From Thermoproteota archaeon (GTDB lineage Archaea; Asgardarchaeota; Jordiarchaeia; Jordiarchaeales; Freyrarchaeaceae): 64,000 nucleotides of DNA. Position numbers and translations under genes: made by a program. Numbering within the stretch: the first letter of the stretch is position 1; each line of letters starts with the position of its first letter. Positions 36,914-38,532 of this stretch are shown piece by piece. The stretch covers positions 64,001 to 128,000 of the forward strand of contig JAPDJY010000035.1 in the NCBI GenBank assembly GCA_029258835.1, in the 5' to 3' direction. Below the pieces are notes generated by a model. That model ran no database searches. It was not told where the DNA came from and saw only the letters and a list, made by a program, of their open reading frames with translations.

Positions 36914-37027
36914 TCTAAGACGCTCCTTTCATTCAGGCTATTTTAGGCAAGCTTAAAATAAAACTTTTACCGCTTTTAATCCTCGATAGTTAAAAGGGCC
37001 ATAATGTTTGCTGGAGGCGGGAGCATT

Positions 37028-37882
37028 GTGAAGGGATGGCTATTCGAAATCTTCTCCTCCTACCAATCCTTACTAAAATAAGGGGTGAAGGGGAGGGTGG
37101 AAGCGTAAAGGGGTCAAATTACGGGAAGCGGACGATATAGGCCATCCGAGGGGCCGTCGACTTATCCGCTTCTCGGGGTGTAACATATGGTTAGGAGAGT
37201 TTGGTAGGCGAGGGTGTGGGTGGTGCGACACCTTAAACGGCGCCAGACGCCCCACGCCGCTCAGCCTAAATCTGAATATTTGAAGATATCAACAGTTGAA
37301 GAAGGCATGTTTCAAGTGAAAAATCCCGTGGAGCCAGGACTAGTTGTAGAATACGTTAAACGTGTCCACTCACCAGATGTTCACGCGATTTCCCTGACAG
37401 GAGGGGAACCATTATTTCAACTAGAGTTCCTCGCTTCAATAATGAAAGCCCTTAAAGGGGAAGGATACAAAACATACTTGGAAACCAACGGTTCAATGCC
37501 GGAACGAATGGATAAAATAGCATTCTTAACAGACTATTGTTGCTGTGATATTAAAGATGAAACGGCAGGTGCAGCAGAAAACTGGAGACGGCTCGTTGAG
37601 CTGGAGCTAAAAACAATAAGTATACTTATAGATAATGGTGTCAGCGTCTTCGCTAAGGTTGTCGTTACTTCGGAGACGAAGCCTGAAAACGTTGAATGGT
37701 ATGCATCAAAGCTTTCAAGGATGGACTGCCCGCTATGTATTCAACCGGTAACGCCTATAAGGAATTATAGGCCGCCTTCACAACGCCAACTCTTCAGCTT
37801 CACGGAGGCGGCAGCAAAACATCTTGGGAGCGATAATGTGGCCATATCTGTTCAAGTACACAAGTTTTTGGGTATACCTTAA
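37028..37882 (+). CDS. queE: 7-carboxy-7-deazaguanine synthase, split into 4 exons: join(37028..37066,37090..37138,37162..37229,37247..37882)
   Basis: Joined exons give 792 nt and 263 aa: MKGWLFEIFSSYQGEGGSVKGSNYGKRTIFIRFSGCNIWLGEFGRRGCGWCDTPHAAQPK...SLTGGEPL..YLETNG..DIK..QPV..QVHKFLGIP. Clustered with DUF366 and queD. Confidence 0.9.
37067..37089 (+). other. BHB mRNA micro-intron 1 of queE (23 nt)
   Basis: TCCTTACTAAAATAAGGGGTGAA. Central helix UACC/GGUG, bulges AA^U and AA^G, intron stem CCUUA/UAAGG. Contains in-frame TAA; removal restores Q|GEG. Confidence 0.88.
37139..37161 (+). other. BHB mRNA micro-intron 2 of queE (23 nt)
   Basis: AGGCCATCCGAGGGGCCGTCGAC. Central helix CGAU/GUCG, bulges AU^A and AC^U, intron stem GGCC/GGCC, exon stem GAAGCGGA/UCCGCUUC. 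Removal restores TIFIRFSGCN. Confidence 0.86.
37230..37246 (+). other. Relaxed-BHB mRNA micro-intron 3 of queE (17 nt)
   Basis: ACCTTAAACGGCGCCAG. Central helix UGCG/CGCC (3 of 4 pairs), bulges AC^A and AG^A, intron stem CC/GG, exon stem GGUGUGGG/CCCACGCC. Removal restores CGWCD|TP. Confidence 0.78.
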
Positions 37883-37896
37883 GGGGAGGCACCCAC

Positions 37897-38532
37897 TTGA
37901 ACTTGAAAAACTTGGAAGTAGTGGAACAGGCTCCTTTAACTGTGGCATTAGTTCCCTTTACTCATCATTTTCCATATACCGGAAGGGAAATAGCGCCGCT
38001 GTGGGCTCTGAAGACATTCGGCATACAGGGGGATTCCATAATCGTTTTCCGTGGTCCCCTTAGCGTTTTAGAGTCCGAACTCGTAGACGTGAAAGACCTT
38101 GTCTTTGAAGGAGGAAAAGGACGCCCTGTTATTTCGTCTAAGGATGCCATAAGCTTTATCATAGAACATTTTGATCAGCAACCACCATCTCTACGGCTAA
38201 TGTATCATAGACTTAGGATCATAGCGTTCCTTTTTAAGGAGCTTGCCGAGGAAAAATGCGGCTTAAGGCTTCAACGTGACGGTACAGACACATACTTTAA
38301 TGGAGGAAAACTTAACGTTGGGGTGGCAACAGTTTCCTCGGGATCCGGAAAAATCCATTTTGCAATAAACATTTCCGTTGAGGGAGCGCCTCCCGGAATC
38401 AAAGTAGCAAGCCTCCTAGACTTAGGCGTTAGCGAAGGTGAAGTCGAGTCGTTTGCTGTTTCCCTCGCTAAACGTTACAGGCGTGAGATACTAGACGTTG
38501 AGAGTGACGTTGCGAAATCTAAAACCTTCTAA
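37897..38532 (+). CDS. DUF366 family protein (que-cluster associated)
   Basis: YTGREIAPLWA, GDSIIVFRGP, FIIEHFD, RDGTD, KLNVGVAT and KIHFAINI motifs. Confidence 0.85.
   Translation: MNLKNLEVVEQAPLTVALVPFTHHFPYTGREIAPLWALKTFGIQGDSIIVFRGPLSVLESELVDVKDLVFEGGKGRPVISSKDAISFIIEHFDQQPPSLRLMYHRLRIIAFLFKELAEEKCGLRLQRDGTDTYFNGGKLNVGVATVSSGSGKIHFAINISVEGAPPGIKVASLLDLGVSEGEVESFAVSLAKRYRREILDVESDVAKSKTF

What the first reader, a model, noticed from the sequence alone, without database searches (positions are those of the whole stretch)
37028..37882. queE mRNA carries three bulge-helix-bulge micro-introns: a multi-intron protein-coding gene in a probable Asgard archaeon
Seen: the 5' 220 nt of queE encode the conserved N-terminal motifs in three different frames, separated by inserts of 23, 23 and 17 nt. 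Each insert, with its flanks, folds into the BHB motif (4-bp central helix, two 3-nt bulges, intron stem). Cutting after the second nucleotide of each bulge gives exactly the junctions that rebuild YQ|GEG, TIF|IRFSGCN and CGWCD|TP and a stop-free 263-aa protein. Established: archaeal EndA cuts BHBs at that position and RtcB ligates the exons; the textbook archaeal mRNA intron is the single one in crenarchaeal cbf5, also an RNA-modification gene. Inference: this is a functional, triply spliced mRNA that annotation pipelines would call truncated or pseudogenised. I do not know of a described three-intron queE, but I cannot check the literature.
Basis: partly seen in the sequence, partly recalled or inferred. 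Interest (0 to 1): 0.95.

Follow-up and report, generated by a model that had tools for sequence, protein, structure and literature searches.

The report
Three tRNA-type introns split Asgard queE
The queE gene of this Asgard (Jordarchaeia) archaeon is cut into four pieces by three tiny tRNA-type introns that all 11 related genomes keep at the same spots, so its mRNA almost certainly has to be spliced; published work has confirmed this for only one archaeal gene (cbf5, one intron), and I could not check any RNA data here.

Summary
Removing 37067-37089 (23 nt), 37139-37161 (23 nt) and 37230-37246 (17 nt) gives a stop-free 263-aa radical-SAM protein. It aligns without gaps to intact Asgard and Thermococcus QueE across all three joints.

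The inserts are not an assembly artefact: contigs from four independent public runs carry them unchanged.

All 11 genomes of the class (Jordarchaeia/Freyarchaeia) have inserts at the same three codon positions.
- Exons 2 and 3 are always 49 and 68 nt.
- Insert lengths drift: 20-26, 18-30 and 15-30 nt.
- The intron-1 stem shows compensatory changes at all 5 pairs.
- Exons 1-3 have dN/dS of 0.05-0.13 in the spliced frame.
- The 51 QueE-bearing Asgard genomes sampled outside the class are uninterrupted.

The genome encodes two EndA paralogues (one without the catalytic His), an intact RtcB, and the rest of the archaeosine pathway. I also verified BHB introns in its EF-1alpha, aIF2gamma, cbf5 and ahcY genes.

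Caveats:
- No RNA data could be found.
- Intron 3 is a relaxed BHB (3 of 4 central pairs, 2-bp stem).
- The 3' bulge of intron 2 is 5 nt.

This scan had already noted BHB introns in other protein genes of this genome and of related ones. I found no published report. Verdict: a real, class-wide, triply interrupted gene, with splicing inferred.

The parts
37014..37018 (+). GGAGG, a likely ribosome-binding site 9 nt upstream of the GTG start
   Evidence: Read directly from the sequence. Orthologues start at the same codon with ATG, GTG or TTG.
37028..37066 (+). Exon 1 (39 nt, codons 1-13, M/V-KGWLFEIFSSYQ). Its last 6 nt supply central-helix strand UACC (37061-37064) and bulge nucleotides AA.
37067..37089 (+). 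Intron 1 (23 nt, phase 0). U, stem CCUUA (37068-72), loop CUAAAA, stem UAAGG (37079-83), central-helix strand GGUG (37084-87), then AA. It carries an in-frame UAA, so unspliced RNA would give only a 17-aa peptide.
   Evidence: In 11 genomes 99 of 99 cells are paired and all 5 inner pairs show compensatory changes.
37090..37138 (+). Exon 2 (49 nt, GEGGSVKGSNYGKRTI plus the first base of the Phe codon). It is 49 nt in all 11 genomes.
37139..37161 (+). Intron 2 (23 nt, phase 1). A, stem GGCC, loop AUCCGAGG, stem GGCC, central-helix strand GUCG (37156-59), then AC. GUCG pairs with exon CGAU (37133-36). The outer helix is 37123-37132 with 37165-37174, after a 5-nt 3' bulge.
   Evidence: 92.9% of cells are paired across the genomes, against at most 59% for slid controls.
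37162..37229 (+). Exon 3 (68 nt, (F)IRFSGCNIWLGEFGRRGCGWCD). It holds the three radical-SAM cluster cysteines and is 68 nt in all 11 genomes.
37230..37246 (+). Intron 3 (17 nt, phase 0), a relaxed BHB. A, CC, loop UUAAAC, GG, CGCC, then AG. CGCC pairs with exon UGCG (37224-27) at 3 of 4 positions. The outer helix is GGGUG (37218-22) with CGCCC (37248-52). Cuts shifted by +1 or +2 give the same product.
   Evidence: The central helix is 4/4 in 9 of 11 genomes. The inner stem is 4-5 bp in 5 of the 6 Freyrarchaeaceae genomes (2 bp in the sixth) and 1-2 bp in Jordarchaeaceae.
37247..37882 (+). Exon 4 (636 nt including the TAA stop). This is the radical-SAM core and C-terminus. Gene callers report this part as an N-terminally misframed or truncated 188-222 aa protein.
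   Evidence: A custom HMM scores the 222-aa ORF at 261 bits and the spliced protein at 355.8 bits.
37897..38532 (+). DUF366 gene directly downstream
   Evidence: Pfam PF04017, 174 bits
38498..39004 (+). queD (6-carboxytetrahydropterin synthase), which makes the substrate of QueE
   Evidence: TIGR03367 at 80.8 bits and PF01242

Best explanation
queE of this Jordarchaeia archaeon is a functional gene interrupted by three protein-spliced (bulge-helix-bulge type) introns.

Proposed mechanism:
1. The pre-mRNA folds so that the last nucleotides of each upstream exon pair with the 3' end of the intron, forming a 4-bp helix.
2. That helix is flanked by two bulges, and a hairpin inside the intron closes the far side.
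3. The tRNA-splicing endonuclease cuts after the second nucleotide of each bulge. It is probably an (alpha-beta)2 heterotetramer built from the two EndA paralogues.
4. RtcB joins the exons.
5. The ligated mRNA encodes the 263-aa enzyme, including the QGEG motif and the three Fe-S cluster cysteines. These lie on the small exons 1-3.
6. Unspliced RNA terminates after 17 codons.

Shown here: the inserts, their exact fit to homology-defined joints, their class-wide conservation and covariation, selection on the spliced frame, and the presence of the enzymes.

Inferred: the cleavage and ligation themselves, and the enzyme architecture.
For: 1. Splicing restores an end-to-end match. The spliced protein covers HMM positions 1-261 of 262 at 355.8 bits, against positions 62-261 at 261 bits for the longest ORF. 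It aligns gaplessly across all three joints.
2. All 11 genomes of the class carry inserts at the same three codon positions. Exon 2 is 49 nt and exon 3 is 68 nt in every one. The inserts vary from 20-26, 18-30 and 15-30 nt.
3. In intron 1 the central and inner helices are 100% paired, and all 5 inner pairs changed on both sides. Slid controls reach at most 67%. In intron 2, 92.9% of cells are paired.
4. dN/dS of exons 1-3 in the spliced frame is 0.05-0.13, with pS of 0.5-0.87.
5. All 51 QueE-bearing Asgard genomes sampled outside the class have one open, uninterrupted frame.
6. The genome has a single queE. QueD and DUF366 lie next to it. QueC, arcTGT and an ArcS-like gene are intact.
7. There are two single-unit EndA paralogues. 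One has the Y/H/K catalytic residues and the other has Ala at the His position. RtcB is intact.
8. Contigs from four independent runs carry the inserts without indels.
9. The same cut rule restores EF-1alpha, aIF2gamma, cbf5 and ahcY in this genome.
10. The lineage is known for tRNA genes that are 92-98% intron-bearing, often at non-canonical sites (PMC11291895; bioRxiv 10.64898/2026.10.13.758758).
Against: No RNA evidence of any kind exists for this gene.

Several folds depart from the strict BHB:
- Intron 3 of the window has only 3 of 4 central pairs and a 2-bp inner stem.
- Intron 2 needs a 5-nt 3' bulge, and in Freyrarchaeaceae its central helix is 3/4.
- The outer helix of intron 1 has no conserved register, and RNAalifold prefers one that would bury the 3' cut site.

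A BHB-like fold alone carries little information in this genome. True-handed and mirror-image motifs are equally frequent, so structure by itself proves nothing.

The rule that EndA cuts after the second bulge nucleotide is from my own knowledge. Here it is supported only by its consistency across seven introns.
Confidence: 0.86

Rival explanations
1. The inserts are removed from the RNA, but not by EndA/RtcB. Some other nuclease and ligase, or an unknown small-intron pathway, does it, and the BHB-like folds are incidental hairpins.
For: The relaxed geometry of intron 3 and of the 3' side of intron 2. BHB-like folds are frequent by chance.
Against: In seven introns of five genes the frame-restoring joint falls exactly after the second nucleotide of a bulge that follows a 4-bp exon-intron helix. 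The central helix is conserved even though it links coding and non-coding sequence. The genome's two EndA paralogues (one lacking the catalytic His) are consistent with an (alpha-beta)2 enzyme, and (alpha-beta)2 and epsilon2 EndAs are reported to accept relaxed and BHL substrates (PMC5829648, PMC12397907).
Confidence: 0.06
2. queE is a decaying pseudogene, or a tolerated broken gene, and the inserts are never removed.
For: Gene callers and public annotation report only truncated or misframed proteins. No RNA data exist.
Against: The same three breaks are kept in 11 species-level genomes of two families. There are no indels in exons 1-3 but free indels in the inserts. dN/dS is about 0.1 in the spliced frame while synonymous sites are near saturation. 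The rest of the pathway is intact.
Confidence: 0.03
3. The ribosome skips the inserts (translational bypassing as in T4 gene 60, or programmed frameshifts), so no RNA splicing is needed.
For: The inserts are short hairpins, and intron 1 has an in-frame stop just after the take-off point, as the gene 60 gap does.
Against: There are no matching take-off and landing codons. For intron 1, CAA is followed by a landing context of GAA|GGG. For intron 3, the only downstream GAC lands in the wrong frame and meets a stop. Three bypasses of variable length (15-30 nt) in every species would be needed. Intron 2 lies inside a codon (phase 1).
Confidence: 0.03
4. Assembly or sequencing artefact, or a chimeric contig.
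For: The source is a metagenome-assembled genome with 6% estimated contamination.
Against: Contigs of four runs from different studies cover the inserts with no gaps or joints. One of them spans the whole stretch at depth of about 62. Ten other genomes show the same architecture.
Confidence: 0.01

Closest known systems
BHB intron in the cbf5 pre-mRNA of Crenarchaeota (Desulfurococcales and Sulfolobales; Watanabe 2002; Yoshinari 2006; Yokobori 2009, PMC2738675)
   Same: A short protein-spliced intron inside a coding sequence, with a BHB formed from exon and intron nucleotides. It occurs in a lineage with a hetero-oligomeric EndA, the gene belongs to RNA modification, and gene callers misread it as a frameshift.
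   Different: cbf5 has one intron per gene and the case is confined to a single gene family. Here three introns sit within 220 nt of one gene, in a metabolic radical-SAM enzyme. They occur in Asgard archaea, are conserved across a whole class, and stand beside further interrupted genes (EF-1alpha, aIF2gamma, ahcY and this genome's own cbf5). Splicing has been shown experimentally for cbf5, not here.
Multiple non-canonical tRNA introns of Freyarchaeia/Jordiarchaeia and Atabeyarchaeia (PMC11291895; bioRxiv 10.64898/2026.10.13.758758)
   Same: The same lineage, the same presumed enzymes, the same tiny sizes, relaxed motifs and several introns per gene.
   Different: Those substrates are tRNAs. 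Neither paper reports introns in protein-coding genes: the terms 'mRNA', 'cbf5' and 'queE' are absent from the preprint.
BHB intron in the 5' UTR of Haloferax volcanii HVO_1309 mRNA (PMC7714728)
   Same: EndA acts on an mRNA.
   Different: That intron lies in the untranslated leader and does not interrupt the reading frame.
Unconventional HAC1/XBP1 mRNA splicing in eukaryotes (Ire1 plus a tRNA ligase such as RtcB; from my own knowledge)
   Same: A protein endonuclease cuts at RNA stem-loops, a tRNA ligase joins the exons, and the step changes the reading frame.
   Different: The nuclease (Ire1) and its recognition motif are different, there is a single stress-regulated intron, and no BHB is involved.

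Membership tests
Archaeal BHB (EndA-spliced) intron | A 4-bp central helix flanked by two 3-nt bulges on opposite strands, each 3' of its helix strand | tested here: inconclusive
   Intron 1 meets the central helix (4/4) and both 3-nt bulge positions, but the register of its outer helix is unclear. Intron 2 has 4/4 and a 3-nt 5' bulge, but a 5-nt 3' bulge. Intron 3 has 3/4 and a 2-bp inner stem. These are relaxed forms (hBH / BHL-like) rather than the strict motif.
Archaeal BHB (EndA-spliced) intron | Cutting after the second nucleotide of each bulge and joining the ends gives the mature functional sequence | tested here: met
   All three joints restore the frame and align gaplessly to intact QueE. 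The same rule restores EF-1alpha, aIF2gamma, cbf5 and ahcY.
Archaeal BHB (EndA-spliced) intron | The helices are maintained in evolution (covariation) | tested here: met
   Intron 1: 99 of 99 cells paired and 5 of 5 inner pairs compensatory. Intron 2: 92.9% paired with one compensatory pair. Intron 3: central helix 4/4 in 9 of 11 genomes, with CGCA, CGUA and CGCG variants.
Archaeal BHB (EndA-spliced) intron | The organism encodes a splicing endonuclease and an RtcB ligase | tested here: met
   Two EndA paralogues at 105.7 and 82 bits, and RtcB at 606.9 bits. The paralogues are 32% identical, and the second lacks the catalytic His.
Archaeal BHB (EndA-spliced) intron | Demonstrated cleavage and ligation (spliced RNA, circular intron, or an in vitro assay) | not testable with these tools
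   No RNA run was listed. No spliced form was found in the protein or contig collections.
QueE (7-carboxy-7-deazaguanine synthase, radical SAM) | A score above a curated QueE family cut-off | tested here: not met
   The C-terminal part scores 21-32 bits on QueE equivalogs whose cut-offs are 200-300 bits. Intact archaeal homologues named QueE by NCBI also stay below these cut-offs at 44-54 bits, so this archaeal clade is not captured by the models. The spliced protein itself was not scanned, because I did not type long sequences into the tools.
QueE (7-carboxy-7-deazaguanine synthase, radical SAM) | The radical-SAM cysteine triad and the N-terminal QGEG motif | tested here: met
   Both are present only after splicing: QGEG spans joint 1, and C-x12-C-x2-C lies in exon 3. 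Pfam Radical_SAM hits exon 4.
QueE (7-carboxy-7-deazaguanine synthase, radical SAM) | Genomic context with other preQ0/archaeosine genes | tested here: met
   queD and DUF366 lie directly downstream. QueC, arcTGT and an ArcS-like gene are found elsewhere in the genome.

The most novel reading that the evidence does not exclude
Jordarchaeia run a general, obligatory mRNA-splicing system on the tRNA-splicing enzymes, with true multi-intron genes. In this reading the introns were actively gained at invariant protein motifs, for example by reverse splicing into sequences that can supply the exon half of a BHB. Supporting hints are the QGEG and Cys motifs of queE, the same P-loop codon in EF-1alpha and aIF2gamma, and the catalytic Asp codon of cbf5. 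The three queE introns might also couple supply of the tRNA-modification precursor to EndA/RtcB capacity. This would be a working model of intron gain and of interrupted genes in close relatives of the eukaryotic ancestor.
Probability: 0.15. Interest if true: 0.95.

Novelty: new variant of a known kind. Interest (0 to 1): 0.82.

Why it matters
In the papers I could search, cbf5 of Crenarchaeota is the only archaeal coding sequence with a confirmed protein-spliced intron, and it has just one (PMC2738675; PMC7714728). I found no report of a multi-intron gene.

A gene with three such introns, conserved across a whole Asgard class and accompanied by interrupted essential genes such as EF-1alpha and aIF2gamma, has several consequences:
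- An archaeal lineage close to eukaryotes routinely separates transcription from productive translation by an RNA-splicing step.
- Current annotation of these genomes systematically truncates or misframes real proteins. Public QueE entries for the class are 188-264 aa artefacts.
- Intron gain, exon-intron co-evolution and the substrate range of EndA become testable on a compact three-intron substrate about 220 nt long.

Tried and rejected
- **RNA evidence.** No RNA holder was listed for the stretch, whether I asked for any kind of run or for RNA only.
- **Spliced or intron-less forms in public collections.**
  - Ten 90% clusters of the class's QueE proteins hold only truncated or read-through forms.
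  - A search with a 62-aa spliced N-terminal peptide of relative L018 found only intron-less QueE of other lineages.
  - A degenerate pattern for joint 3, run on the metagenome contigs, hit only unrelated DNA and bacterial queE.
  - None of this is evidence either way.
- **Genome-wide counts.** Three BHB-plus-ORF-repair scans with frame-shifted controls gave no enrichment over controls. They used open-frame length, then added codon-usage scoring, then added bulge composition. A frame-compatibility test also showed no enrichment. A mirror-image control gave equal counts. The motif is too degenerate and gene boundaries too numerous, so I give no genome-wide intron number. The scan did recover introns 1 and 2 of queE and a few convincing sites.
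- **Alignments.** RNAalifold on MAFFT alignments of introns 2 and 3 gave poor consensus folds because the loops were misaligned. I used a position-anchored parse instead.
- **tRNAs.** ARAGORN found no tRNA in the window.
- **Not attempted.** I did not predict the structure of the spliced protein or scan it against families. It is not encoded letter for letter in the window, and I did not type long sequences into the tools.
- **Considered and rejected.** Inteins, group I/II introns and MITE-like insertions do not fit. The inserts are far too short, are not in frame, and have no terminal repeats or target duplications.

Full report
**What is in the sequence.** On the + strand a GTG at 37028, preceded by GGAGG, opens a frame that reads MKGWLFEIFSSYQ and then meets a UAA. 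The longest ORF gene callers see is 37214-37882 (222 aa). It is a radical-SAM C-terminal core without the cluster cysteines. Deleting 37067-37089 (23 nt), 37139-37161 (23 nt) and 37230-37246 (17 nt) gives 792 nt, a stop-free 263-aa protein.

The N-terminus of this protein aligns without a gap to intact QueE of Helarchaeota, Heimdallarchaeia, Hydrothermarchaeales and Thermococcus across all three joints: FSSYQ|GEGGS, KRTIF|IRFSGCN and GCGWCD|TP. I built an HMM from 82 intact homologues. It scores the spliced protein at 355.8 bits over positions 1-261 of 262, and the 222-aa ORF at 261 bits over positions 62-261. No further insert exists in the C-terminal part. Downstream lie a DUF366 gene and queD.

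**The folds.** Taking the cut after the second nucleotide of each bulge (my own knowledge of EndA), I get the following.
- Intron 1: UACC-AA|U-CCUUA-(loop)-UAAGG-GGUG-AA|G. The central helix is 4/4 and the inner stem is 5 bp.
- Intron 2: CGAU-AU|A-GGCC-(loop)-GGCC-GUCG-AC|U. The central helix is 4/4 and the inner stem is 4 bp. The 10-bp outer helix only starts after a 5-nt 3' bulge.
- Intron 3: UGCG-AC|A-CC-(loop)-GG-CGCC-AG|A. Only 3 of 4 central pairs form and the inner stem is 2 bp, so it is a relaxed motif close to a bulge-helix-loop.

So 'each folds into the BHB motif' is accurate for intron 1, nearly so for intron 2 and generous for intron 3. BHB-like folds are common in this genome. My loose scanner found 95,171 of them, and true-handed and mirror-image motifs are equally frequent. 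What cannot be chance is such a fold sitting exactly at a joint fixed independently by protein homology. The per-site, per-length frequencies are 1.8e-4, 4.5e-4 and 2.1e-2 for introns 1, 2 and 3.

**Not an artefact.** Logan contigs of four runs from different studies cover the inserts with no indel and no joint. One 23.9-kb contig at depth of about 62 spans the whole stretch. Others cover introns 1-3 or introns 1-2.

**Comparative evidence, the core of the case.** The nearest relatives are Jordarchaeales, Jordarchaeia and Freyarchaeota. Their deposited QueE proteins are 175-227 aa truncations or misframed proteins of 236-264 aa. The GTDB class holds 11 species-level genomes in two families, and each has exactly one queE.

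In all 11 the gene carries inserts at the same three codon positions.
- Exon 2 is 49 nt and exon 3 is 68 nt in every genome.
- The inserts measure 20-26, 18-30 and 15-30 nt, with many lengths that are not multiples of three.
- After removal, all 11 give closely similar N-termini.

The structure also co-varies.
- The inner stem of intron 1 has several different sequences (CCUUA, CUUCC, CCUUCCU, UCCCCC, UCCCU). All five pairs changed on both sides and 99 of 99 cells are paired, against at most 67% when partners are slid.
- In intron 2, 92.9% of cells are paired, against at most 59% for slid controls. Its stem grows from 3-4 bp to 9-10 bp in five of the six Freyrarchaeaceae genomes (3 bp in the sixth).
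- The central helix of intron 3 is 4/4 in 9 of 11 genomes, with CGCA, CGUA and CGCG variants.

In the spliced frame, exons 1-3 have dN/dS of 0.05-0.13 while synonymous sites are half to fully saturated. Indels are therefore free inside the inserts and forbidden in the exons, and the exons are under protein-level selection in a frame that exists only after removal. This excludes a pseudogene.

In a sample of 301 Asgard genomes, the 51 QueE-bearing genomes outside the class all have one uninterrupted frame covering residues 1-4 to 258-261. The three introns are therefore a shared derived trait of the class.

**Machinery and need.**
- The genome has two single-unit EndA paralogues (N-terminal plus catalytic domain each, 32% identical). 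One keeps the Tyr/His/Lys residues and the other has Ala at the His position.
- This is what an (alpha-beta)2 enzyme would look like. That type is reported to accept relaxed motifs (PMC5829648, PMC12397907) and was linked to cbf5 splicing (Yoshinari 2006, cited in PMC12397907).
- RtcB is intact.
- QueC, arcTGT and an ArcS-like gene are intact, so the pathway needs QueE.

**The gene is not alone.** Leads came from earlier notes of this scan. I checked four other genes of the same genome myself.
- EF-1alpha: a 43-nt insert splits GHVDHG-K|S, with CGGC-AA|U...GCCG-AA|G and a 10-bp stem.
- aIF2gamma: a 30-nt insert sits at the homologous P-loop codon, in the same CAC GGC AA| context.
- cbf5: a 27-nt insert lies inside the catalytic Asp codon (CACU-AG|A...GGUG-AA|A).
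- ahcY: the family model is split at positions 179|180 by a 23-nt insert (UGGG-AA|A...CCCA-AA|U).

In all seven introns the frame-restoring joint obeys the same cut rule. Since EF-1alpha is indispensable, mRNA splicing must be efficient in this organism; this is an inference.

My own genome-wide scans could not count such introns, because controls matched the signal.

**Literature.** The confirmed archaeal case is the single cbf5 intron of Crenarchaeota (PMC2738675). A 2020 study still calls it the only coding example and adds one 5'-UTR intron in Haloferax (PMC7714728). Freyarchaeia/Jordiarchaeia are known for tRNA genes that are 92-98% intron-bearing, many with several non-canonical introns (PMC11291895; bioRxiv 10.64898/2026.10.13.758758). 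Neither paper mentions protein-gene introns. Five searches found no report of mRNA introns in Asgard archaea.

Earlier follow-ups of this scan describe the same kind of intron in other genes of related genomes, some with RNA support. I did not verify those.

**What is missing.** No RNA run holds this stretch. No spliced or intron-less form turned up in the protein clusters, in a peptide search or in a junction-pattern scan. Cleavage, ligation and the enzyme's architecture are inferred.

**Verdict.** It is a new variant of a known kind: cbf5-type mRNA splicing, but with three introns in one metabolic gene, conserved across a whole Asgard class, and part of a wider set that includes essential translation genes.

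Noticed in passing
G000 C27:28832-28874 (-) and C27:26080-26109 (-): EF-1alpha (43 nt) and aIF2gamma (30 nt) each carry a strict BHB intron at the homologous P-loop codon (GHVDHG-K), in the same exon context CAC GGC AA|. This looks like parallel insertion at one sequence context in two ancient paralogues.
   Followed up: partly
G000 C27:11929-11955 (+): This genome's cbf5 has a 27-nt BHB intron with two in-frame stops, inside the catalytic Asp codon (GTL-D-PKVTG). I did not compare its position with the crenarchaeal cbf5 intron.
   Followed up: partly
G000 C4:24354-24376 (-): ahcY (SAH hydrolase) is split by a 23-nt BHB intron. The family model matches positions 1-179 and 180-416 in two different frames.
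   Followed up: yes
L006:1210-1782 (+) and L007:862-1788 (+) (G000 C1 and C6): There are two single-unit EndA paralogues. The second lacks the catalytic His and sits in a 308-aa ORF whose first ~130 residues are low-complexity and may not be translated.
   Followed up: partly
L010 (G003), L013-L015, L017 and L018 (Freyrarchaeaceae), intron 3: In several relatives intron 3 is a multiple of three: 15 nt in L010, 27 nt in L013-L015 and L017, and 30 nt in L018. For the 15-nt and 27-nt forms, gene callers read straight through it and deposit 'QueE' proteins with a spurious 5-9 aa insert after the CxxCD motif (for example P0003 and P0154). Intron retention there would not break the frame.
   Followed up: partly
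window 37897-38532 (+): A DUF366 gene is wedged between queE and queD and overlaps queD by 35 nt. Its role in deazapurine metabolism is unassigned.
   Followed up: no
G000 C8(+) 63575 (30 nt), C82(-) 2378 (30 nt), C6(-) 51458 (36 nt), C12(-) 662 (27 nt); strand-oriented scan coordinates: My scan turned up further strong candidates for BHB introns in coding regions, with inner stems of 5-10 bp and bulges starting with A. I did not check their homology.
   Followed up: no
Asgard phylum sample: Only 62 of 301 sampled Asgard genomes matched this QueE type. Whole families (for example f7, 0 of 76) had no match with this query, so they may use another QueE type or lack it.
   Followed up: no
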